Assembly: GCA_964450845.1 (NCBI GenBank)
Contig: CAYVGZ010000024.1
Location: 1 to 18,991, forward strand
Direction: 5' to 3'
Length of the DNA stretch: 18,991 nucleotides
Source of the DNA: an uncultured Candidatus Bathyarchaeia archaeon
GTDB taxonomy: Archaea > Thermoproteota > Bathyarchaeia > Bathyarchaeales > Bathycorpusculaceae
Positions 1 to 11,076 of the stretch are shown piece after piece. Numbering within the stretch: position 1 is the first letter of the stretch; every line of letters begins with the position of its first letter. The position numbers and the translations under genes are program-made. The notes under the pieces were generated by a model. That model was not told the origin of the DNA. It was given only the letters and a program-made list of their open reading frames with translations, and did not search any database.

Positions 1-1884
1 TCGCCTAGGCAAGTGACAAGCCTAGTTCAGCGGGTTGGTCGCAGCGGTCACAGCATGGACAGATTTTCTGAAGGCATCATCGTTACAGCTTATCCCGATG
101 ACACGCTGGAGAGCATTGCTGCCGTGCAGAGCGCGTATGAGAACAAGATTGAACCTGTGCTGATTCATGAGGCTGCCTTGGATGTTTTAGCTCATCAGGT
201 TGCCGGGATGCTAATGGACAAAGAAACCATCGGACTTGATGAACTATTAGCTATTCTACGCAGGGCTTATCCCTATCGCGCTTTGACCGAGAAGCAACTT
301 CTGGATGTGATAGGCTTTTTAGACAGCTTGAACGAGTTGAGGTTTGATGAAGAAGGCAGGGTTTTGAGAAAGGCACGAAAGACCAGAATGTACTATTATG
401 AGAATCTCAGCATGATTCCCGACGAAAGACGCTACCCAATAGTCAATGTGATTTCCGACAGAAAAATCGGCACGCTGGGCGACGAATTCATGGCACTGCA
501 CGCACGGGTAGGTAGGAACATGATAGTAAAGGGCAAGGTTTGGCGGATCGTGCAGATAGAGGAGGAAACTGGAACCGTTCACGTTGTACCTTCTGAGGAC
601 CCGCTAGCAGCCATTCCCGGTTGGGATGGCGAGATGATTCCAGTGCCCTTTGACCTAGCGCAACAGACAGGACGAATGCGTGAAAAGCTTTTGGGTTTTT
701 TGAAGGAGACAGGCAACGTTGAAATTGCGGCGGAGAAGGCCGCAAAGGAACTGACCATAAACAAAGCAGATTTGCTTGAAGCCGCAAAGGAGGTTGAAGA
801 GCACGCTAAGCAAGGAGCTCCATTGCCCACAAACAGGCTTGTTGTTGTTGAGGCTTTTGACAAATATTTGATCGTGCATGCCTGTTTTGGCGAGATCGTG
901 AATCGCACGTTGGGCGGGGTTTTTGATTCAGTACTCTCTGACCATGAGATTATTGTTGGTTGGTGGACTGATGGCTACAGAATTTTGATTGAAGCTAGGC
1001 ATAAGCTAAAACAGCAGGAGCTTGAGACACTCAGCAAAGCCATGTTTAGCTTATCTGATGAGGAGATTGAGAAGGCTTTTGAAGAGTATATGGAGGCAAA
1101 GTTTCCTTTTTCTTACAAAATGAAGTTTGTTGCACAACGTTTTGGAGCGTTGCCTCGTGGAAAATTCATGAGCCCTGAAAAAGAAGAAAGATTGCCGTAT
1201 CAGTTTGAGAATACACCGATTTATGATGAGACTTTGCGTGAGGTTATGGTTGAGAAGGTGAATGTTGACAAGGTCAAAGAAGTCATGCGTGATGTTCGAG
1301 AGGGAAAAGTCAAGGTTACTACGGTTTATCGTGTTGAGAAGCCTACGCCTTTGGCTTATCATATTCTTGAGAAGTATAGTGATGTTTCAGAGTTGATGGC
1401 GCCAGAACAGGTTTTGCTGAGCAATATTGAGAAGATGAAGAAGGCTATTGAAGCGAGAACTGCTAGGCTATTGTGCATGCAATGCGGCGAATGGACAGCA
1501 GAAAAGAAAGTCAGAGCTTTATCGGAACAACCAGAATGCGAAAAATGCGGTTCTAGGCTTCTGACGCTCATGTATTTTAGTCAGGATGTGAAGCGTTTGG
1601 CTGAGTTCTTGAAGAAGAGACGCAAGAATAAGGAGTTGTTTGAAGAGGAGCTTAAAGAGTTGACTCAGGCTAGGCGGAAGGCTGATTTGATTTTAAGCTA
1701 TGGAAAAAAGGCGATAGTAGCGTTAGAGGTGAAAGGTGTAGGTCCAGAAACCGCCTCTAGAATCTTGGGAAAAATGCATCCGAAAGAAGACGACTTTTAC
1801 ATGGACCTTCTGAAAGCAAAAATTCAGTATTTAAGAACCAGAGAATACTGGGAAAACAAAGAAGACCATATAAGAAGCTTTTAG
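1..1884 (+). CDS. lhr: Lhr-family SF2 helicase, 3' part (5'-truncated by the window), with C-terminal Zn ribbon and HhH-like motif
   Basis: Frame 1 is open from base 1 (SPRQVTSLVQRVGRSGH, Lhr-type motif VI). Lhr hallmarks follow: LDVLAHQV, winged-helix YPYRAL, YYENLSMIPDE, IGTLGDEF, GKVWRIV, IPGWDGE, LPT..VVVE..HACFG. C-terminal CMQC...CEKC and LEVKGVGPETASRIL. Confidence 0.93.
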   Translation, partial: SPRQVTSLVQRVGRSGHSMDRFSEGIIVTAYPDDTLESIAAVQSAYENKIEPVLIHEAALDVLAHQVAGMLMDKETIGLDELLAILRRAYPYRALTEKQLLDVIGFLDSLNELRFDEEGRVLRKARKTRMYYYENLSMIPDERRYPIVNVISDRKIGTLGDEFMALHARVGRNMIVKGKVWRIVQIEEETGTVHVVPSEDPLAAIPGWDGEMIPVPFDLAQQTGRMREKLLGFLKETGNVEIAAEKAAKELTINKADLLEAAKEVEEHAKQGAPLPTNRLVVVEAFDKYLIVHACFGEIVNRTLGGVFDSVLSDHEIIVGWWTDGYRILIEARHKLKQQELETLSKAMFSLSDEEIEKAFEEYMEAKFPFSYKMKFVAQRFGALPRGKFMSPEKEERLPYQFENTPIYDETLREVMVEKVNVDKVKEVMRDVREGKVKVTTVYRVEKPTPLAYHILEKYSDVSELMAPEQVLLSNIEKMKKAIEARTARLLCMQCGEWTAEKKVRALSEQPECEKCGSRLLTLMYFSQDVKRLAEFLKKRRKNKELFEEELKELTQARRKADLILSYGKKAIVALEVKGVGPETASRILGKMHPKEDDFYMDLLKAKIQYLRTREYWENKEDHIRSF

Positions 1885-1894
1885 CCGAATAGCG

Positions 1895-2392
1895 TTATTT
1901 TCTGGTTGTTTCACAGAGCAATACGCAATGAGGCCACCTTGTTTTCAGTTCGCTCATCCACTTCTCGATAGCTTTTTTCTGGTTGACATCTCCTATTTTC
2001 TTCAGCTCTTCCTTTATTCTCGGATTGCTTTGCTCTAGTGACTCAAAATTTTTGCATTCTGTGAGTTCATCGCATTGGCTGCAGTTGGTCAAGTTTTTCT
2101 TTAAGGCACATATTCTGATTTCGCATGTTGGATTTCCACCGCCGTTTTTGCAGCCTGAGCACAGTGGCATGGCTTTTATGCAGGCGAGGCTTTTTATGAA
2201 CTGGTTGAAGTTGAACTCTTTCGAAGCCCACTTTTCTAATGCGGATTGACTGCGTTTGATGATTTGCTCGTATTTTCTTGTTAGTTCTTGTATGGCGTCG
2301 TTGCCGCCGAGACAGCCTCCACACCAGATTCCGCAAAAACCGATTTGGTTTTTAACGTTTTCGAAGCCTTCAGTCAATTGACATTTCTCCAT
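1895..2392 (-). CDS. DUF3795-family Cys-rich protein
   Basis: Motifs CGIWCGGC, CSGC, CEIRICA and CSQCDELTEC match the DUF3795 cysteine pattern; ATG at 2392. Confidence 0.8.
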   Translation of the reverse strand: MEKCQLTEGFENVKNQIGFCGIWCGGCLGGNDAIQELTRKYEQIIKRSQSALEKWASKEFNFNQFIKSLACIKAMPLCSGCKNGGGNPTCEIRICALKKNLTNCSQCDELTECKNFESLEQSNPRIKEELKKIGDVNQKKAIEKWMSELKTRWPHCVLLCETTRK

Positions 2393-2491
2393 GTTGTTAA
2401 GAAATGTCAGAAGAGAAAAACATGATATAAATGATTTGGAAAAACCAGGGAGGGCGTTGAATCTCTCTATTGTGAACTCTTGAGGCTTTGC

Positions 2492-3591
2492 TTACAGTGA
2501 TATTCGACCGTTTTTTATTATTGTTTTTCCGCCAACTTTGAGTGTTGCTTTGCTCAGTGTCGCTGCTATGCCAAATGATGCGTTGTTTTTTCCGCCGATG
2601 TACTCGTTGTCTCCGATGCCTATTTGAACTGCTCCTTCAACAATGTAGTCCATCAAATATCCGTACTCTGCTTTGGGGTTTAAGCCTATTTGTAGATAGC
2701 CTATCTTGTCTTTGTCTCCTGAGGCTTTCTCGAACTGTTTGGAAATAGCTTCCACATTCTTCTTCGCTGTCATCGATGTCAGTTTTCCCTTTTTGAATCC
2801 AAATTTGATGCCTGATACGTTTAAGCCCACACTCTGCAGTGGTCGGTCAAAGATTACTTTTCCGTTTCCGCTTGTTTCAAGTATGGTTGTTAGCACGGAC
2901 CCAGCTGGCAGTTGTGAGTCGAGGGATTTTTTGCGATATCTTTTTTGTCGATTATTCCATCGTCGACGTGGACTGGTCTTTTGGCTAGTTCGAAAGTGAG
3001 GTTGGTTCCATTTGGTGCAGTGAGATGTGCTGTGCGGGCTTTCTCAAGAATTGCTGCGATGCTGCGTCCCACTTTCGCTATTTTCTTCAGATCCATTGTT
3101 AAAGCGTTGTTCACTACTTTTTTCCATTTTTGGAAATTGAAGCCATAGACTTTGGCTCTTTCTGCGGTCACTAGTGCTAATGGAAGACTAACGTTTCTGA
3201 TTTTTCTCTCTATGTTTCTTGGATAATGTGCCTTTCTTTCTCCTTCGCTCCAAGCGTTGATTTTTGAAGGAGACAGTTTTTTCAAGCCTTCAGGGTTTTT
3301 TGGACCAAACAGGTTGATTGTTGCTGTTTCTGTTTCGGTGAATGCTTGGCATATTTTTGAAGGAATCTGTAGACTTTCTGTTGACAGTTCCCTAAGAAAT
3401 CCGTAGTAGTACTCGTCCGTCCAGAGGCATATCATAGCGTCTGCGCCTTGTTTGAAGCATTCAACCGCCATGGCATTAGCCACGTCAATTGTGTGATCCC
3501 AAGTTGTAATTATAACGACATCACTTGGGTCAATTCTCAACGAGTCTCTAACAACTGTTTTTGCCAATTCCTCATACAATGCACTTATCAC
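2492..3591 (-). pseudogene. Peptidase M29 (aminopeptidase T/leucyl aminopeptidase)-like gene split by a -1 frameshift at 2932-2926; pseudogene, programmed frameshift or indel error; predicted catalytically dead
   Basis: ORF 3591-2890 (N-terminal part, LTAPNGTNLTFELAKRPVHVDDGII) continues in the -1 frame as SLDSQLPAGSVLTTILETSGNGKVIFD...IGLNPKA...GAVQIGIGDN..IGG, giving ~366 aa of M29-like protein. An SD-like GAGGGGGTGAT suggests TTG 3579 as an alternative start. Confidence 0.8.
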
Positions 3592-3622
3592 CCCCTCAGA
3601 AAACAGAATCGTACGACCCTAC

Positions 3623-3630
3623 ATATAAAA
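3623..3630 (-). promoter_or_regulatory. Putative TATA box for the M29-like gene
   Basis: TTTTATAT on the minus strand ~32 nt upstream of GTG 3591, with an SD-like motif in between. Confidence 0.4.
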
Positions 3631-3873
3631 CATAGGAATAACAACGTACAGTCCGGCTGCCTGTTCAATCTATATATGGAGATGTCGTTTTCACTCAGAA
3701 GGTTTGTGGCTAACAGATAGAAGCCCACGACAGAAACTGCATAGTGAAAAAAACTAAAGCATTTTAATCCGCTATGCAACCGCTTCAATCCTTAGATTTC
3801 TTCACTAGAGGATAATCCTAAAAAGGTTAAAAAGAAATTAAACCTAAAAGACAAGATGTAAGAGTTAAGAAGC

Positions 3874-4320
3874 ATGTGGTCAAGAGAAAAAATAAACGCT
3901 TCCTTATTGAAACATTATCGGATATTCCTTACTTTTTTCATAATAGGGGTTTTGGTTTTGTCTATATTGCTTCCATATAATAGATTCACATCTTCCAAAG
4001 GCAATTTTGAAAATGAAGTCAATCCAACGATTGTTAATGGTATTCTCACTGCAACGGCAATCGTTTTTGGTTTCGTGGCATTCGAATTAAGAGAAATAAA
4101 ATCGTCTATTATTGAAAAATTTGTTTTGTCTCTTCCTCTGTTATTTTATTTGATGATCACTCTAGAATGGTATTTTATAGCGGCTACGGTTGGAAAGATA
4201 ACAATGGTCTTGGTGTTTGAGATCACGTCAAACTGCCTTTTTAATATCCTCTACACAATTCCTTTAACAATTGCCAAAGAAATTCATGAAGAACTAGAAC
4301 AGAGAAAACAAGAAAAGTAA
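3874..4320 (+). CDS. Hypothetical membrane protein (~4 hydrophobic segments), 148 aa
   Basis: Clean ATG-TAA ORF in the AT-rich segment; hydrophobic stretches IFLTFFIIGVLVLSILL, GILTATAIVFGFVAF, FVLSLPLLFYLMITL, ITMVLVFEITSNCLFNILY; charged C-terminal tail. Confidence 0.7.
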   Translation: MWSREKINASLLKHYRIFLTFFIIGVLVLSILLPYNRFTSSKGNFENEVNPTIVNGILTATAIVFGFVAFELREIKSSIIEKFVLSLPLLFYLMITLEWYFIAATVGKITMVLVFEITSNCLFNILYTIPLTIAKEIHEELEQRKQEK

Positions 4321-4380
4321 AAAAAGCCACCTAACAGTATTACATGTAAGAAATGCGGAAAAAACTTATAGCATAACCAA

Positions 4381-4394
4381 AAAAGCTTATTATA
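4381..4394 (+). promoter_or_regulatory. Putative BRE + TATA box for a leaderless HEPN-gene transcript
   Basis: AAAAGC followed by TTATTATA (4387-4394), ending 23 nt before ATG 4417, the spacing typical of leaderless archaeal mRNAs. Confidence 0.45.
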
Positions 4395-4416
4395 ATAGAG
4401 CGTAGAGCGAACAGAA

Positions 4417-5257
4417 ATGAGTTTAGAGAATAAGTTTAGCGTGAAAGCCTATCTAGAGGGATTTCATAAAGTAGAAATAGGACAAAAAGTAGCTGACTGT
4501 GAGTTCGGGTTTGATTCTAAACGTAATCAATATTTCCTATCTATGATTATCTCTGCTAACAGCATGCAAGAGGCAAAGCATAAAGGTGAATTGAGACTAA
4601 AGCAAGTGCTGTGTTTTCGTCATATACAATGGAATCTCCTATTCAATTAGCACTATTGGTGTTGACCAGATTTCTGGTGAACGACCCTTCCTACATTCTG
4701 TTACCATAATTTTAGGAAGGCTAAGATATTTACCTCTCAGTAAGGAAAGAATCGAAAAAATCGTGACCTCTATAGAACTTCTTGACAAACTTCCAAGCCA
4801 AGAACAGTCAACAAAGAGAGTAGATAGAGCAATAAACTACTTTCTGAAAGGGTGTTTCTTAGAAACACGATTAGACAAATACGGACGTTCTGAGTCTTTT
4901 TTGAATTTTTACAAAGCTGTAGAAATTATAAGTCATGATTTTATAAAAAGTTTCAATAAAGAAGTTAGCGGTCAATTGGAAACTACGCAATTAGGAAACC
5001 TAACTGAACGAGAAATTGAAAAACTGCGAACCTCGAAAAGACTAATTCAGTTTACATGTGGGAAATTGGGAACAATTAACATTTGTGACATATCGAGAAT
5101 TGTTGAACTTCGCAATAAATTTAGTGCTCATGCAAGCTTGGAAGAAGCTAATGTGTCAAAAAAGGAGATTGATGATTGCAAAGTGCTTGCGGCAAGAAGT
5201 ATCATAGAATATATAAACTACGTTTACAGGAGTCTCTTGGACTCCCCTACCCTTTGA
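4417..5257 (+). pseudogene. HEPN-domain protein (putative RNase; MauJ/ApeA-like architecture) interrupted by a frameshift near 4605-4620
   Basis: ORF 4417-4650 switches into a frame open from 4601 to 5257 (VFVIYNGISYSISTIG...RAINYFLKG...ESFLNFYKAVE...LRNKFSAH), ~280 aa when joined. R-N-x4-H at 5111-5131 plus the upstream FYKAVE helix is HEPN-like. Confidence 0.65.
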
Positions 5258-5350
5258 AACATCTTGAGTTTTGATTTAACCTTAAAAAATCTTGAAACGT
5301 ATCTGATATTTTGCGATAGGTTTTTAATTTTGGTTTGATATTATTCTATT

Positions 5351-5431
5351 AGTGGTTAAGTGCGGAAAAAGAATTTTGGAATGTGAAAACGTTCAGGAAT
5401 TCTCGTATACCCAATTCCGCACTTGACCATT
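5351..5431 (+). ncRNA. Candidate structured small RNA (long hairpin with GAAA tetraloop)
   Basis: 17-bp outer stem 5351-5367/5415-5431 (15 Watson-Crick, 2 G-U), a 2x11 internal loop, a 15-position inner stem 5370-5384/5389-5403 (3 G-U, 1 G.A) and loop GAAA at 5385-5388. Confidence 0.5.
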
Positions 5432-5469
5432 CTTTAACCCCACAATTTTAAGCGATTTTATCGTGTCTT

Positions 5470-5674
5470 CTATTTATAGGGGAGAGGGGGGTAGGTTACT
5501 CACACAGAGCCTCCACTTATCCAAACTTTTCAACACTTCTCAGTACTAATCAAACTTCTGACACCTCGTTTAAATTTCAGCCTCTTCTCTTACCCTAATA
5601 CAAGGAAAAGGAGGGAAAAAGCCTCAACCAAAAGTTGAACCTATATATAAGGGGGGTCTAAGCACACAGAGAGC
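5470..5674 (+). repeat. Two imperfect direct-repeat units, CTATWTATAR-G-run-T...CACACAGAG
   Basis: Copy 1 at 5470-5510 (ctatttataggggagaggggggtaggttactcacacagagc); copy 2 at 5641-5674 (ctatatataaggggggtctaagcacacagagagc). Confidence 0.45.
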
Positions 5675-5760
5675 AACAGAAAGAAGGCATTCATAAGAGT
5701 TTGATGCGTTAACCCTTAATAATATGACATCTTTAAAACAGCTCTTGAATTGGTGTCAAA

Positions 5761-7032
5761 ATGAGCGAAAAGAACAGTGAACCGTCACAGCTTAAGTCAA
5801 CTTTAGGCTTATTTGATGCCACAGCCATAAGTGTCGGCGCAATAATAGGCGCAGGTATATTCGTTGTAACAGGCATTGTTGCAGGCTTAGCTGGTTCAGC
5901 CCTAATAGTTTCCATGCTTGTAGCCGCAATAATCTCCATGTTCACTGCATTAAGCCTCGCCGAATTAACAGCTTGGCAACCAAAAGAAGGAAGTATCTAT
6001 GAATACACATACCAACTAATCTCTCCATTCGCAGGATTCTTAACAGGCTGGATGTGGATACTATCCAACACATTCGCAGGTGCAGCAGTCTCGCTAGGCT
6101 TCGCTAATTACTTAACAGCCCTATTTCCAATTTTACCAGCCAACTGGATTGCAGCTGTCCTCTGCATAGCCTTCACGACACTCAATTTCTTCGGCATCCG
6201 CCAATCAGCCCTCATGAACAACTTCTTAGTCGTAGCCAAACTGCTTATCTTGGCATTCTTCATCATTTTAGGCGTAGCATACGTTAACTCTTCAAATTTC
6301 ACGCCTTTTGCTCCCTTTCAAGTCGGAGTGCTTTACGGTGCATGCTACATTTTCTTCGCCTACGGCGGATTCGCAAGAGTAGCCGTAGTAGCAGAAGAAG
6401 TCAAAGACGCAAAAAGAAACGTTCCAAAAGCCATACTGCTTTCACTGGCAATATCCACAATAGTCTACATACTTGTCGGCGTAGTAGCTGTCGGACTCGT
6501 AGGAGCCCCTAATTTGTCAAACTCAAGCTCACCAGCCTTAACTCACGCCATAAACGCTACAGGAAACACAACTGCCGTCTACATAGTCTCCGCTGGAGGA
6601 TTATTAGCAACCGCAAGCGTGCTACTCACATCAGTTTTAGGAGTTTCCCGCGTGGCATACGCAATGGCAAGAAGAAAAGACATCCCACAAGCCTTATGCA
6701 AACTCCACCCAAAATACAACACACCCTACTATTCAATATGGATAATAGGCACTTTAATGGCACTACTCGTTTTATTTATAGACCTTACAAAAGTCGTAGC
6801 CATAAGCACCTTCGCATTACTCTTCTACTACGCCTTTGCCAACGTTTCCGCTCTACGATTAAAAGTTCAAAAAAGACTCTATCCACAACTTGTGCCAATT
6901 TTAGGCGCAATCACGTGCCTAGCACTATTAATCTTCATTCTTTTCGCTTCACCACAAGCATGGATAATAGGCGTTGCAGGCTTAACAGCAGGAGCAGTCT
7001 ATTACATAGCCAAAAACAAGTTTCGCTTCTAA
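5761..7032 (+). CDS. APC-superfamily amino acid permease
   Basis: LKSTLGLFDATAISVGAIIGAGIF (TM1 GxxIGxGIF motif), SLAELTA...EGSIYEY, FFAYGGF, EEVKDAKRNVPKAI, HPKYNTPYYSI; ~12 TM segments. Confidence 0.93.
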   Translation: MSEKNSEPSQLKSTLGLFDATAISVGAIIGAGIFVVTGIVAGLAGSALIVSMLVAAIISMFTALSLAELTAWQPKEGSIYEYTYQLISPFAGFLTGWMWILSNTFAGAAVSLGFANYLTALFPILPANWIAAVLCIAFTTLNFFGIRQSALMNNFLVVAKLLILAFFIILGVAYVNSSNFTPFAPFQVGVLYGACYIFFAYGGFARVAVVAEEVKDAKRNVPKAILLSLAISTIVYILVGVVAVGLVGAPNLSNSSSPALTHAINATGNTTAVYIVSAGGLLATASVLLTSVLGVSRVAYAMARRKDIPQALCKLHPKYNTPYYSIWIIGTLMALLVLFIDLTKVVAISTFALLFYYAFANVSALRLKVQKRLYPQLVPILGAITCLALLIFILFASPQAWIIGVAGLTAGAVYYIAKNKFRF

Positions 7033-7039
7033 GATAAGG

Positions 7040-9469
7040 TTACTTTCCCTTCCTTTTCAACATGTTCTCCAATATTGGACGCAGCTTCTCGTTTTCCGCT
7101 TTAATCTTATCCTTGCCCAAAGCATGCATTTGCTCCGTCATCTCCCTAACAACTTCCGCAAATTTTACACCTTCAGCAGCAGAAACATATTCCACACGGA
7201 ACCTTTCAGGACTTAGTCCAAGCTTCTGCAGCATCGGTGCCAAAGCATCCATTCTGGCTTTCATTTTCCAGTTTCCGCTTATATAGTGACAATCGTAAGG
7301 CAGGTGACATGCGCCAACCAGAACGATGCCAGCACCTAACCTGAAAGCTTCCAAAACAAAATCGCGGTCAACCCTTCCCGAACACATAACCCTTATCGGG
7401 CGAATTGTCGGCGGATATTCAAATCTGCTTGTACCTGCCAAGTCTGCCCCTGCATAACTACACCAGTTGCAGAGAAAAGCCAAAATCTTGTCTTCTGGGT
7501 CTTTTTCAAGAGCAGCCCTTATCTGAGCCATTATTTGCGCATCTGTAAAGTGCATCTGCGTTATCGCATCTGCAGGACATTCTGCCACACATGTCCCACA
7601 CCCATGACACATGGCTGTTATTACTTGCGCAGGCTGTTTTTCTTCAATCTTGATTGCTCCATACGGGCATCGTTCAGCGCAAATACCACATTTACTCGTG
7701 ACATTTCTGCACTTGCTAGGGTCAATAACTGAAACTATCGGTTCAATCTTCCATTTTGGCTTCGAAAGCACAGTTGCCGCTCTTGACGCTGCACCGCTGC
7801 CCTGTGAAACGCTGTATGGTATATCCTTCGGTCCCTGACATGCTCCAGCTAAGAATATTCCATCAGTAGGCGTATCTAGCGGCTTGAGTTTGGGATGGCT
7901 CTCCATGAAAAAGCCGTCTGCACCACGAGTTAGATTAAGTATTCGTGCCATTTCCTCTGTACCCTTCTTGGGTATGGCTGCAGTTGCCAGAACAACCATG
8001 TCAGCCTCCACCTCTATAGGTTGACCAAGAGTCATGTCCTCAGCGTGTATAATCAAATTTTTTGACTCTGGAACCTCAAAAATGCGACTTACTCTTCCAC
8101 GAACAAAGTTTACGCCAAGCTCTCTTGCACGTTGATAAAATTCCTCATAGCCTTTAAAGTTGCTCCGCATGTCCATGTAGAAAATGTAAACTTCCACATC
8201 TTCCTTATACTTCTCCTTAAGCTGAACAACATGCTTCAAAGTGTACATACAGCAGAAATTTGAACAATATGGATATTTGTTTGCGTCACGCGACCCAACA
8301 CATTGAATAAAAGCTACGCTGTGTGGTTTCTGCCCATCTGAAGCCCGGACAACCTTTCCCGCAGTTGGGCCAGCAGCAAGTATGAGCCTTTCAAACTCGA
8401 GGGACGTGATTACGTTTGCGTATTTTCCATATCCTAAAAGCTGATTGTCATAGGGCAAGTATATGTCATAGCCTGTCGCCACAATTATTGCGCCCACATC
8501 CACGTCTATTTCTTCTGGTTGCTGTTCAAAGTTTATGGCTTGTCTAGCCCCACAAGCGTCAACACACTTGTAGCATTCGATACAATAATCTTTGTTTATC
8601 GTGTAATCGAGTGGAACCGCTTGGTCAAATGGTGCCGATATGGCTTTTCTAACACCTAAACTCATGTCCCACTCGTTCGGATATTCAATTGGGCAAACAT
8701 CTTTGCATTCACCACAACCAGTGCAGTTCTCAGGAATCACATACCGCGGGTTTTTCCGAATCTTAACTTTAAAATTACCTATAAAACCGCTTACACTCAA
8801 CAAATCAGCATAAGGTATTATCTCAATATTGGGATGCCGCCCAACATCAACCATCTTTGGACCTTCAATACATATGGAACAGTCAAGAGTTGGAAAAGTT
8901 TTATCAAGCTGCGCCATGTGGCCCCCTATACTTTCGCCTTTCTCAAGCAAATACACTTTAAAGCCCATTTCAGCCAAGTCTAAAGCAGCGTTCATTCCTG
9001 ATATGCCGCCACCTATGACTAATGCCTTGTTGGTTACTGGAACCTCTATTGTTTGAAGCGGATGCAGAAGCCTCACCTTCGCCACAGCCATTTTTATCAT
9101 GTCTTTGGCTTTCTCGGTTGCCTCTTTTGGCGTGCTTGGATGGCACCAAGATGAGAATTCGCGGATGTTTGCCATTTCAAAAAGAAACGGGTTCAAGTTA
9201 ACATCAGAAACTGTTCTTCGAAATGTTGGCTCATGCATCCGTGGAGAGCACGCAGCCACAACAACACGGTTAAGCTTATGCTCATCTATCCCCTTTCTTA
9301 TCTCCTCTTGTCCCGGATCTGCACATGTGTAGCGATTTTCTTTAACATAAACAACGTTTGGCAGAGTTTTTGCATATTCAACAAGCTCTTTAATATCCAA
9401 CACGCCTGCAATGTTTAATCCACAGTGGCATATGAAAACGCCTATTCTTAGCTCCTCAGTTTCAACCAT
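7040..9469 (-). CDS. hdrA: Heterodisulfide reductase subunit A fused to a C-terminal MvhD/FlpD [2Fe-2S] domain
   Basis: HdrA N-terminus (IGVFICHCG, VVAACSPRMHEPTF, MANIRE..SW.H), FAD motif VIGGGISG, DKTFPTLDCSIC, inserted and C-terminal ferredoxin motifs, CVGSRD...YCSNFCCMY, GIFLAGACQGPKDI. The C-terminal domain FLCNWCSYAGADLAG...RVMCSGRVD...GACH...CHY is MvhD. Confidence 0.95.
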   Translation of the reverse strand: MVETEELRIGVFICHCGLNIAGVLDIKELVEYAKTLPNVVYVKENRYTCADPGQEEIRKGIDEHKLNRVVVAACSPRMHEPTFRRTVSDVNLNPFLFEMANIREFSSWCHPSTPKEATEKAKDMIKMAVAKVRLLHPLQTIEVPVTNKALVIGGGISGMNAALDLAEMGFKVYLLEKGESIGGHMAQLDKTFPTLDCSICIEGPKMVDVGRHPNIEIIPYADLLSVSGFIGNFKVKIRKNPRYVIPENCTGCGECKDVCPIEYPNEWDMSLGVRKAISAPFDQAVPLDYTINKDYCIECYKCVDACGARQAINFEQQPEEIDVDVGAIIVATGYDIYLPYDNQLLGYGKYANVITSLEFERLILAAGPTAGKVVRASDGQKPHSVAFIQCVGSRDANKYPYCSNFCCMYTLKHVVQLKEKYKEDVEVYIFYMDMRSNFKGYEEFYQRARELGVNFVRGRVSRIFEVPESKNLIIHAEDMTLGQPIEVEADMVVLATAAIPKKGTEEMARILNLTRGADGFFMESHPKLKPLDTPTDGIFLAGACQGPKDIPYSVSQGSGAASRAATVLSKPKWKIEPIVSVIDPSKCRNVTSKCGICAERCPYGAIKIEEKQPAQVITAMCHGCGTCVAECPADAITQMHFTDAQIMAQIRAALEKDPEDKILAFLCNWCSYAGADLAGTSRFEYPPTIRPIRVMCSGRVDRDFVLEAFRLGAGIVLVGACHLPYDCHYISGNWKMKARMDALAPMLQKLGLSPERFRVEYVSAAEGVKFAEVVREMTEQMHALGKDKIKAENEKLRPILENMLKRKGK

Positions 9470-9470
9470 G

Positions 9471-10394
9471 TTATGATCCCTTCCATCCTAACCTCTTTTC
9501 TACGGATTCCATCACTTTCCGAGAACCTTTAGCCTTCAACTCTTTAGTCACCTCAATCGGCGAAGCCAGCTTTTCCAACGCTTTATTCCACGCTCCAGAA
9601 CGAACAGGCGTATGGCTTATTTTGGTTCGCTTAAGTTCCAAGGCTTCCTCAACGGGGCAAACAACTTTGCACGCTCCGCAGTAAACGCAAAACATTTCAT
9701 TTACATGCACTTTTTTATCTTCGTCAGAAAGGTAAAGTGCCCCAGTTATTGGGCATACGTCCAAGCAATCTGTGCAGCCTTCAGGACATTTTTCTGGATG
9801 AATCAATATTTTTCCCTGAATAAATTTTCGAACGCGAATAACGCCTTCTGGACATTTGAATTCGCAGATTCTGCAACATGGGCAACGTTCTTTTTCAATA
9901 TCAATTTTAACTTGAAGACCCTTCCTTTTTCTTTTTGTTACTTTTTCAACAACTTTTCCATCAGCCGTCAGCCTAGTTACTTTAATTAAACCTAAAGGGC
10001 ATGCTTCTTCGCATTCCACACAGTTTACGGGGCATTTGCTTGTGTCAACTTGAATGTCTCGAATCAATTGTGGGAAGCTTTCTTTTTCAACCACTGAAAG
10101 GATATGTTCTCCATTCACTGTTACCCTTATTGCTCCGTACGGGCACAGTACGTCGCATATTCCACAAAAGTTGCATTTTGCCAAATCGACGTCAATTTTT
10201 GCTTTTTCTGCCTTTTTTCCTTGAATTTTAGGCTGTTTCTCAAGTTTGATAGCCTCTTTTGGACAGACTAAAGTGCAGATTTGACAGCCGACGCAGAGGT
10301 TTTTGTCAATGGTCAACTTGTAGTTTTTTACGTGCAAAGCCCATTCTAACGTTAATGCTTCTGCTGTGTCTATTTTTGTTGTCTTTAACGGCAT
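9471..10394 (-). CDS. Polyferredoxin with six [4Fe-4S]-type motifs, FwdF-like
   Basis: Six Cys clusters (CVGCQICTLVCP, CNFCGICDVLCP, CPVNCVECEEACP, CPCCRICEFKCP, CPEGCTDCLDVCP, CVYCGACKVVCP); C-terminal HTPVRSGAWNKALEKL resembles FwdF tails. ATG 10394 follows the SD-like GGCGGTTGAT (the track starts at TTG 10409). The stop is 1 nt before the hdrA start. Confidence 0.85.
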   Translation of the reverse strand: MPLKTTKIDTAEALTLEWALHVKNYKLTIDKNLCVGCQICTLVCPKEAIKLEKQPKIQGKKAEKAKIDVDLAKCNFCGICDVLCPYGAIRVTVNGEHILSVVEKESFPQLIRDIQVDTSKCPVNCVECEEACPLGLIKVTRLTADGKVVEKVTKRKRKGLQVKIDIEKERCPCCRICEFKCPEGVIRVRKFIQGKILIHPEKCPEGCTDCLDVCPITGALYLSDEDKKVHVNEMFCVYCGACKVVCPVEEALELKRTKISHTPVRSGAWNKALEKLASPIEVTKELKAKGSRKVMESVEKRLGWKGS

Positions 10395-10497
10395 CCGATC
10401 AACCGCCAAATTACATTTTTACGATGCGTTACCCATAGGTGAAATATAGCCTAATGTTCAACTTTCATATATAGTTTAGTTTAAAAATCACAAGTTT

Positions 10498-11076
10498 TTA
10501 ATGACAAAGTTTGGTGCACACTGTCACATAGCATTTTAAGCCTTCATCTTTCAAAGCAATGACATTAAAGCCAGCACCGTGCAGTAACCTCTCAAATTCT
10601 TCCCGCGTGAAAGCCTTCTTCATACCAGTGATAACGAATACGGCATCATTTTTTGCAACTCGCCTAATTTCGTTCAAAGTTTTAGCTGGGTCTGGCATGT
10701 TTTGAATAAGCGTAATGGCAAAAACGTGGCTGAAAATGTTTCCGCTTAGAGGCATGTTGTCAGCATCAGCTAAAATCAAGCATGATCCTTGAAAATTTTT
10801 TGCGCGTTGTTTGGCTTGAAGCAAAATTTTCCTAGAAATATCCAGTCCAACTGTTGTTTCTGCTTTATCAGCCACATAACTAAATAACAGTCCCGTTCCG
10901 CAACCTGCATCTAAAACCAGACTGTAATTGTCTGTTTTTAAACCTTCTAACGCTGCCTCAATTTTTGCAATCTGTTCTTCAGCGTATTGCATGTCATAAA
11001 TGTGAGCTGTTAAATTGTAGCAATGCTTCACACCGCGTTTTTTATTCCATCCGTTCATGGCAAACTCTTCAGACAC
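10498..11076 (-). CDS. Class I SAM-dependent methyltransferase (UbiE/Methyltransf_11-like)
   Basis: VLDAGCGTG motif I, VGLDIS motif II, ADADNMP and RRVAK; alternative start ATG 11058. Confidence 0.88.
   Translation of the reverse strand: MSEEFAMNGWNKKRGVKHCYNLTAHIYDMQYAEEQIAKIEAALEGLKTDNYSLVLDAGCGTGLLFSYVADKAETTVGLDISRKILLQAKQRAKNFQGSCLILADADNMPLSGNIFSHVFAITLIQNMPDPAKTLNEIRRVAKNDAVFVITGMKKAFTREEFERLLHGAGFNVIALKDEGLKCYVTVCTKLCH

What the first reader, a model, noticed from the sequence alone, without database searches (positions are those of the whole stretch)
4417..5431. HEPN putative RNase followed by a strongly structured small RNA: candidate RNA-antitoxin/HEPN-toxin or defence module
Seen: a HEPN-like gene (R-N-x4-H at 5111-5131, FYKAVE helix) and, 93 nt after its stop, an ~81-nt hairpin, both inside an AT-rich insert. 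Known: HEPN domains are RNase effectors of toxin-antitoxin and anti-phage systems, and the HEPN toxin AbiF is neutralised by an adjacent ncRNA antitoxin. Inference: this may be an archaeal protein-plus-RNA toxin module from a different (MauJ/ApeA-like) HEPN branch, where the hairpin is an antitoxin or decoy substrate.
Basis: partly seen in the sequence, partly recalled or inferred. Interest (0 to 1): 0.8.

Follow-up and report, generated by a model that had tools for sequence, protein, structure and literature searches.

The report
Broken HEPN gene beside orphan hairpin
A real but frameshifted RNase-type (HEPN) gene and a real, very stable 81-nt hairpin lie together in a 2-kb strain-specific insert of a Bathyarchaeia genome, but the hairpin accompanies none of the gene's relatives, so the two do not look like a toxin and RNA-antitoxin pair.

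Summary
Both observed objects are real. The gene at 4417-5257 belongs to a small, unannotated family of about 275 aa. It has an N-terminal alpha/beta domain and a C-terminal HEPN domain with invariant R-x5-H. Fold matches to Csm6, HepT and AbiV reach Z about 10. Here a 2-nt deletion at 4610/4611 breaks the gene.

The hairpin at 5351-5431 folds at -36.6 kcal/mol (z -7.2). It has 26 Watson-Crick and 5 G-U pairs, no A-C pair, and a GAAA loop. It ranks about 16th of 36,000 sampled genome windows.

The proposed toxin plus RNA-antitoxin link fails its own refutation test:
- A covariance model of the hairpin hits nothing in 23 homologue loci, 100 related genomes or the rest of its own genome.
- Similarity to the nearest examined homologue stops 66 nt after the stop codon, before the hairpin.
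- Downstream regions of 20 homologues are no more structured than controls.
- There is no abiF motif, no tandem repeats and no conserved neighbouring gene.

The family behaves as a solitary cassette with its own conserved promoter.

The whole 1,971-bp AT-rich segment is absent from a same-genus genome. It is bounded by copies of a dispersed promoter-like cassette, a kind of repeat this scan has noted before in other Bathyarchaeia. The hairpin's own role stays unexplained.

The parts
3663..3677 (+). Left boundary repeat GTTCAATCTATATAT. It is the upstream half of a dispersed promoter-like cassette.
   Evidence: G002:C23 aligns up to window 3679 and resumes at 5644. There is a 13/15 direct repeat with 5634-5648.
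3678..5633 (.). Strain-specific AT-rich island of 1,971 bp counting one repeat copy. It is a mosaic of a TM-gene module, the HEPN cassette, the hairpin module and a promoter-cassette module.
   Evidence: It is absent in same-genus G002. G008 has a different 2.4-kb insert (MFS transporter plus PNPOx) at the same spot. GC is 0.32-0.37.
3874..4320 (+). 148-aa predicted membrane protein. It is not linked to the HEPN family.
   Evidence: 28 metagenomic homologues, none with a Pfam domain. No copy lies beside any HEPN homologue or elsewhere in the genome.
4355..4372 (+). BRE/TATA-like promoter motif GCGGAAAAAACTTATAGC of the HEPN cassette.
   Evidence: The same motif (GCGGAAAAGTTATAGC type) lies 45-55 nt upstream of the ATG in L003, L005, L013, L016, L023 and L044.
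4417..4650 (+). N-terminal piece of the HEPN-family gene. It is in frame up to codon 65, then out of frame to a stop.
4610..4611 (+). Site of the 2-nt deletion that breaks the reading frame.
   Evidence: DNA alignment with L003 and L044, both of which carry two extra bases here. It is not in a homopolymer run.
4601..5257 (+). Frame-2 remainder of the gene, holding the rest of the N domain and the whole HEPN domain. R-x5-H is at 5111-5131.
5258..5323 (+). 66-nt 3' tail of the cassette with T-runs that could act as archaeal termination signals. It marks the end of similarity to the nearest examined homologue.
   Evidence: 83% identity to L003 2670-2735, after which similarity ends. T-runs are at 5269, 5309, 5321 and 5328.
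5351..5431 (+). Orphan 81-nt hairpin: a 17-bp outer stem, an asymmetric internal loop, a 14-bp inner stem and a GAAA loop.
   Evidence: It is single copy and has no relative anywhere searched.
5471..5633 (+). Promoter-like element (5471-5520) plus a non-coding spacer. The block is conserved in another genomic context in G001.
   Evidence: 79% identity over 213 nt to G001:C9:181-379.
5634..5684 (+). Full copy of the dispersed promoter-like cassette in front of the amino-acid permease gene (5761-7032). Its first 15 nt form the right boundary repeat.
   Evidence: 32 copies in the genome. Permease identified.

Best explanation
The gene is a decayed copy of a solitary, horizontally shuffled HEPN cassette, consisting of its own BRE/TATA promoter, one gene and a 66-nt tail.

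Intact family members are about 275-aa proteins. Their N-terminal alpha/beta domain of unknown fold probably acts as sensor or regulator. Their C-terminal HEPN domain, by analogy with HepT, Csm6 and ApeA, would dimerise to form a composite R-x5-H RNase site and cut cellular or viral RNA when triggered. That would make it a single-gene abortive-infection or toxin-type defence that needs no linked antitoxin. In this genome a 2-nt deletion after codon 65 uncouples the HEPN domain from its start codon, so the system is most likely dead.

The hairpin is a separate, lineage-specific module (about 5324-5470). It is wedged between the HEPN cassette and a promoter-cassette module inside a mosaic 2-kb island. 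It is not a family-level partner of the HEPN protein. If it is transcribed, it is transcribed on the + strand. My best guess is that it is a passive structured element at a recombination junction, acting as a 3' tail or insulator before the permease promoter.

Shown: the fold, the motif, the frameshift, the island boundaries and the orphan status of the hairpin. Inferred: RNase activity, a defence role, and what the hairpin does.
For: HEPN identity:
- R233 and H239 are invariant, as are E160, N164 and E170, in 37 homologues. R and H stay 90-100% conserved in 59 distant members.
- The AlphaFold model has pLDDT 86.
- 14 of the top 16 structural matches are HEPN proteins: Csm6 Z 10.4, AF_0298 10.3, HepT-type toxins 9.7-9.8, AbiV 8.8. 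They cover residues 127-280.
- Weak Pfam hits of distant members fall only on HEPN families (MauJ 11/59, RiboL-PSP 9/59, MAE_28990, Apea, AbiU2) and only on residues 150-260.
- The nearest named Atlas cluster is the MauJ family (score 0.95).

Solitary cassette:
- No neighbour gene is conserved among 14 loci.
- A shared promoter motif lies upstream of the gene.
- The family was found in 0 of 400 sampled class genomes and has only 92 representatives among 1.84 billion proteins.

Broken gene: 2-nt deletion and no second copy in the genome. Seven other genes shared with G002 are in frame, so assembly indel noise is low.

Hairpin not a partner:
- (Mann-Whitney p 0.65; downstream median -20.9 against control -21.2 kcal/mol).
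- No Rfam family in the window or the homologue loci.
- No tandem repeats.

Island.
Against: - The hairpin is an extreme outlier in stability for a 37% GC sequence.
- All five of its non-Watson-Crick pairs inside helices are G-U on the + strand. That is roughly p 0.06 under neutral decay, and it hints at selection on an RNA.
- A strain-specific RNA partner cannot be excluded by comparative data alone.
- Many homologue contigs are short.
- A GTG at 4763 could still allow a HEPN-only product.
- The 2-nt deletion was not checked against reads.
Confidence: 0.7

Rival explanations
1. First reader's model. The hairpin is an RNA antitoxin or decoy substrate that neutralises the HEPN toxin, in the manner of type III or AbiF systems.
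For: The hairpin lies 93 nt after the stop on the same strand. It is very stable, its wobble pairs are all on the + strand, and it has a GNRA loop. A precedent for RNA neutralising a HEPN toxin exists in AbiF/RCd22.
Against: The hairpin is not conserved with the gene in any of 23 loci, and the nearest examined homologue lacks it. The AbiF RNA is upstream, co-transcribed and carries the RF03085 motif, none of which applies here. There are no ToxI-type tandem repeats. Four T-runs lie between the gene and the hairpin. The protein is not of the Abi_2 family. The toxin gene itself is broken.
Confidence: 0.06
2. The hairpin is an independent, lineage-specific small RNA gene unrelated to the HEPN gene. 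It would be transcribed from the AT-rich TATA-like stretch at 5321-5331 and end at the T-runs at 5446-5459.
For: The TATA-like run is centred about 25 nt upstream of the first paired base, and two T4 runs lie 15-28 nt after the last one. The + strand folds far better than the - strand.
Against: There is no homologue in 100 related genomes, so no covariation can be tested. TATA-like and T-rich strings are expected by chance in 33% GC DNA. No Rfam match.
Confidence: 0.15
3. The gene is intact in vivo. Either the frame change at 4610/4611 is an assembly error, or it is bypassed by programmed +1 frameshifting in the 4601-4650 overlap.
For: Another gene 1.7 kb away (M29 peptidase) is also frameshifted in this assembly while its orthologues in relatives are intact. 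The two frames overlap by about 50 nt.
Against: The HEPN change is a 2-nt loss outside any homopolymer. All 44 homologues are single ORFs, so frameshifting is not a family trait. Seven other genes in the window are in frame relative to G002.
Confidence: 0.1

Closest known systems
MauJ family (Pfam PF17419), of unknown function
   Same: Same overall length, about 279 aa. It is the nearest named cluster by language-model features (0.95). It gives the most frequent weak Pfam hit, on the HEPN region (11/59 members, best E 8.5e-5).
   Different: All hits are below the Pfam gathering score (21 bits against 28). The window's protein and its close homologues give no hit. MauJ proteins are bacterial, and their role is unknown, so the resemblance gives no mechanism.
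ApeA, a single-gene HEPN anti-phage system (tRNA anticodon nuclease activated by deoxydinucleotides; bioRxiv 10.64898/2026.01.26.701840)
   Same: A stand-alone HEPN protein with N-terminal non-catalytic domains and no antitoxin gene. It has a sporadic, island-type distribution. This gives the working model of a ligand-gated HEPN dimer.
   Different: ApeA is about 580 aa with three mostly alpha-helical domains and a split HEPN with insertions. This family is about 275 aa with an alpha/beta N domain. Only 2/59 distant members touch PF18739, at E 0.0017. No member matched a stand-alone ApeA model in PADLOC; one distant member gave a weak hit to a model named Cas13-ApeA (E 1.4e-4).
AbiF / RCd22 (Abi_2 HEPN toxin with an ncRNA antitoxin carrying the abiF motif RF03085; bioRxiv 10.1101/2025.04.15.648962)
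   Same: A HEPN-type toxin with a nearby structured RNA of about 100 nt on the same strand.
   Different: There the RNA is upstream, co-transcribed, contains two abiF motifs and is conserved beside homologues. Here the RNA-like element is downstream, has no Rfam match and is not conserved.
HepT/MNT type VII toxin-antitoxin (minimal HEPN toxins, PDB 7ae2, 8xdj, 5yep)
   Same: Best-matching minimal HEPN fold (Z 8.6-9.8), with R-x4-6-H catalytic logic.
   Different: No MNT nucleotidyltransferase or any other conserved neighbour. There is an extra 125-aa N-terminal domain.

Membership tests
HEPN superfamily | Four-helix HEPN fold | tested here: met
   Residues 127-280 of the model (pLDDT 86) match Csm6, AF_0298, HepT toxins, ST0689, AbiV and sacsin HEPN at Z 8.8-10.4. 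14 of the top 16 rows are HEPN proteins. Z near 10 is only middling for helical bundles, so this rests on the enrichment plus the motif.
HEPN superfamily | Conserved R-x4-6-H motif | tested here: met
   R233-x5-H239 is invariant in 37 homologues. H is invariant and R at least 90% conserved in 59 distant members. In the window it lies at 5111-5131.
HEPN superfamily | Metal-independent RNase activity | not testable with these tools
   Needs biochemistry.
ApeA (PF18739 / PADLOC ApeA) | Profile match above threshold, and the three-domain architecture of about 580 aa | tested here: not met
   No Pfam or PADLOC hit for the window pieces or close homologues. Length is 275 aa with an alpha/beta N domain, against the ApeA description.
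MauJ (PF17419) | Profile match above the gathering score | tested here: inconclusive
   9/37 and 11/59 members hit below threshold (best 21 bits against 28). The nearest named Atlas cluster is MauJ.
AbiF-type / type III RNA-antitoxin module | ncRNA conserved next to the toxin gene across homologues | tested here: not met
   The covariance model of the hairpin gives 0 hits in 23 homologue loci. Downstream folding energy equals controls. Upstream regions share only a promoter motif.
AbiF-type / type III RNA-antitoxin module | abiF RNA motif (RF03085) or ToxI-like tandem repeats | tested here: not met
   No Rfam match at E up to 1 in the window, or up to 0.1 in 11 homologue loci. Only trivial tandem repeats.
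AbiF-type / type III RNA-antitoxin module | Toxin of the Abi_2/AbiD/F family | tested here: not met
   No Abi_2 hit in any Pfam scan.
Integron gene cassette with attC | Imperfect palindrome ordered RYYYAAC ... GTTRRRY after each cassette, with an integron integrase nearby | tested here: not met
   By inspection, the hairpin carries GTTAAGT in the 5' arm and ACTTGAC in the 3' arm, the reverse order on either strand. No comparable palindrome follows the TM gene. The attC consensus is taken from my own knowledge.

The most novel reading that the evidence does not exclude
The hairpin is a lineage-specific + strand RNA that arose recently as a private antitoxin or decoy for this HEPN cassette, and it outlived the toxin after the gene broke. 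That would be an archaeal, downstream-encoded RNA partner for a MauJ-like HEPN protein, a combination not described so far.
Probability: 0.05. Interest if true: 0.7.

Novelty: new member of a known kind. Interest (0 to 1): 0.28.

Why it matters
The result removes a tempting but unsupported RNA-antitoxin call. It also defines a small archaeal HEPN family that Pfam, NCBIfam and PADLOC do not capture. The family has a clear catalytic motif, an N-terminal domain with no structural match, its own portable promoter and no partner gene. These are the traits of a single-gene defence nuclease, and it is worth one expression test. The result also shows how small accessory islands in Bathyarchaeia are assembled from modules at copies of a dispersed promoter-like repeat.

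Tried and rejected
- Foldseek against the PDB with the full model gave nothing below E 0.1. Only the exhaustive VIA search showed the HEPN fold.
- The profile search of PDB sequences gave only spurious Sel1-repeat matches.
- The N-terminal domain modelled alone (pLDDT 78) had no convincing structural match (best Z 5.5).
- A pattern scan of viral contigs for the outer stem gave 6 hits. These are two unrelated sequences that share only the searched words.
- Phage and plasmid collections hold neither the protein nor the intergenic DNA.
- The integrase of the G019 element has no relative in viral contigs.
- The 13-nt direct repeat at 4351-4363 and 5358-5370 is within chance for this AT-rich stretch. 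It probably reflects a BRE-like GCGGAAAAA word.
- An H/ACA or C/D guide RNA was rejected by eye. There are no C/D boxes, and the internal loop is 2 + 11 nt rather than a two-sided pocket.
- An attC site was rejected on motif order.

Full report
**Observation**

- Frame 2 of the + strand reads ...ELRNKFSAHAS..., with R at 5111-5113 and H at 5129-5131.
- FYKAVE is at 4908-4925 and the stop is at 5255-5257.
- Ninety-three nucleotides later an 81-nt hairpin (5351-5431) folds at -36.6 kcal/mol. The shuffle mean is -16.1 (z -7.2).
- The hairpin has 31 pairs: 26 Watson-Crick, 5 G-U and none A-C. The loop is GAAA.
- The opposite strand folds much worse (-25.7, z -3.3).
- In a scan of 35,932 windows covering 1.08 Mb of the same genome, it ranks about 16th by raw energy despite 37% GC.

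The gene is not one ORF. Frame 1 runs 4417-4650 and frame 2 runs from about 4601 to 5257.

**The protein**

Neither piece hits Pfam, NCBIfam or PADLOC. The C-terminal piece finds 44 metagenomic proteins of 260-287 aa at E down to 1e-107, none annotated.

Their alignment shows invariant R233 and H239 within L-R-x-x-F-S-A-H-A. It also shows an invariant E160/F162/L163/N164/F165/E170 helix.

An exhaustive profile search of 1.84 billion cluster representatives finds only 92 relatives. Across 59 full-length ones, H239 and E170 stay invariant, and R233 and K167 stay at 90% or more.

Weak Pfam hits of those distant members fall only on HEPN-clan families:
- MauJ, 11 members.
- RiboL-PSP, 9 members.
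- MAE_28990, Apea, AbiU2 and Csm6, 1-2 members each.
- All hits fall only on residues 150-260, and all are below the gathering scores.

The AlphaFold model of the closest full-length homologue has pLDDT 86 and pTM 0.85. Foldseek saw nothing. The exhaustive aligner put HEPN structures in 14 of the top 16 places, covering residues 127-280:
- Csm6, Z 10.4.
- AF_0298, Z 10.3.
- HepT-type toxins, Z 9.7-9.8.
- AbiV, Z 8.8.

The ESM Atlas places the protein next to a MauJ-family cluster of 279 aa.

The N-terminal 125 residues form a beta-sheet packed on a long helix. They have no convincing structural match (best Z 5.5).

It is not a member of ApeA, which is about 580 aa with three mostly helical domains. 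It is not of the Abi_2/AbiF family either.

**The break**

Aligned with two homologous genes, the window lacks two bases between 4610 and 4611. The window reads CAAGTGCT|GTGTTTT, against ...CTGAGTG... and ...CTTAGTG... in the homologues.
- The site is not a homopolymer run.
- Seven other genes that the window shares with the same-genus genome G002 are in frame.
- The genome holds no second copy.

I read this as a genuine pseudogene. Read-level confirmation is still needed.

**Is the hairpin a partner of the gene?**

I collected 23 loci with homologues from metagenomes and one from a genome.
1. BLAST of the hairpin and of the whole 500-nt spacer against them finds only the first 66 nt after the stop. 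That match is in the nearest examined homologue (L003, 81% protein identity), and similarity ends at 5323, before the hairpin.
2. The best 90-nt fold in the 250 nt downstream of 20 homologues has median -20.9 kcal/mol. Control segments of the same contigs give -21.2 (Mann-Whitney p 0.65). The window's value is -36.6.
3. A covariance model built from the hairpin finds only itself: in those loci, in 100 related genomes and in its own genome.
4. Rfam gives nothing in the window at E up to 1, or in 11 homologue loci at E up to 0.1. That includes the abiF motif.
5. There are no ToxI-type tandem repeats.
6. Upstream regions share only a BRE/TATA-like motif of the type GCGGAAAAGTTATAGC, lying 45-55 nt before the ATG. 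That is a promoter, not a structured RNA.
7. No neighbouring protein is conserved among 14 loci. This holds even between two loci whose HEPN proteins are 97% identical.

In the one experimentally studied HEPN/RNA pair that I read, the RNA lies upstream of the gene. It is co-transcribed, carries two abiF motifs and is conserved beside homologues. None of these features is present here.

**Context**

Same-genus genome G002 joins window 3679 directly to 5644. This puts the M29 peptidase gene next to the promoter of the amino-acid permease.

The extra 1,971 bp is flanked by GTTCAATCTATATAT (3663-3677) and GTTGAACCTATATAT (5634-5648). These belong to a cassette of about 50 nt present in 32 copies in this genome and in many relatives. 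Its consensus is roughly AAAGTTCAAYCTATATATAAGGGGGGTCTAGTC...GCAGAGAGCAA. Earlier notes of this scan describe similar promoter-like cassettes at variable sites in other Bathyarchaeia.

Another genus has a different insert at the same spot, an MFS transporter plus PNPOx.

The island is a mosaic of four modules:
- A membrane-protein gene with its own set of 28 homologues.
- The HEPN cassette at 4340-5323.
- The hairpin module at 5324-5470, which has no relative anywhere.
- A promoter-cassette block at 5471-5679, which recurs at 79% identity in a different context in G001.

The family is rare. It was found in 0 of 400 sampled genomes of the class. Both observations fit a shuffled accessory or defence gene.

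**Mechanism**

I commit to the following.

Intact members are solitary, sensor-gated HEPN RNases. By analogy with ApeA and HepT, their HEPN domains would dimerise into a composite R/H site. The copy here is dead.

The hairpin is a private element at a module junction. The G-U asymmetry and the strength of the fold leave some room for a + strand RNA role. A TATA-like run at 5321-5331 and T-runs at 5446-5459 would allow a transcript of about 100 nt. Nothing ties such an RNA to the HEPN protein.

My probabilities:
- About 0.7 that the hairpin is not a cognate partner and the gene is a decayed solitary cassette.
- 0.15 that it is an unrelated small RNA.
- 0.06 for the antitoxin or decoy model.
- 0.1 that the gene is in fact intact or frameshift-decoded.

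**Limits**

- Many homologue contigs are short.
- With a single copy of the hairpin, no covariation test is possible.

Noticed in passing
window 5626-5684, plus 31 other places in G000 (for example C62:1426-1476, C28:9957-10002): A dispersed promoter-like cassette of about 50 nt with a near-invariant GGGGGGTCTAG block after the TATA box. There are 32 copies in 1.6 Mb, and it occurs in many related genomes. Copies bound the island studied here.
   Followed up: partly
L044 (G019:C5:88000-100000), 1247-10905: In a related Bathyarchaeia MAG the HEPN homologue is split at its TYLP(I/L) codons by a 9.6-kb element. The element starts with a tyrosine integrase (L044 1318-2517, PF00589 at 1e-13) and ends with a HerA/DUF87-like ATPase gene. 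It is flanked by TTACCTNTAA repeats, which suggests an integrated mobile element that has inactivated the gene.
   Followed up: partly
window 2492-3591 (minus strand): The M29 aminopeptidase gene changes frame near 2926-2965 in this genome. Its orthologues in G002 (408 aa) and G008 (366 aa) are single ORFs. The frameshift is therefore not conserved in relatives, which speaks against a programmed event.
   Followed up: partly
window 5471-5679 and L045 (G001:C9:181-379): Two promoter-like elements about 160 nt apart, with a non-coding spacer lacking any ATG, are conserved at 79% identity in a same-genus genome in a different genomic context. This may be a portable promoter pair or a small RNA unit.
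   Followed up: no
L038 (G008:C54:55300-58000): The spacer between the M29 peptidase and permease genes is a hot spot of gene content. G008 carries an MFS transporter and a PNPOx-like gene there instead of the HEPN island.
   Followed up: partly
window 4351-4363 and 5358-5370; L003 2741-2749: The 5' arm of the hairpin (AAGTGCGGAAAAAG) resembles the BRE-like part of the HEPN-family promoter motif. L003 has CGGAAAAAG just after its conserved 3' tail. This may be a relic of a neighbouring promoter, or chance.
   Followed up: no
G000:C1:132121-132210: A second AT-rich (39% GC), near-perfect long hairpin (-39.3 kcal/mol) in the same genome. It is unrelated in sequence to the one studied.
   Followed up: no
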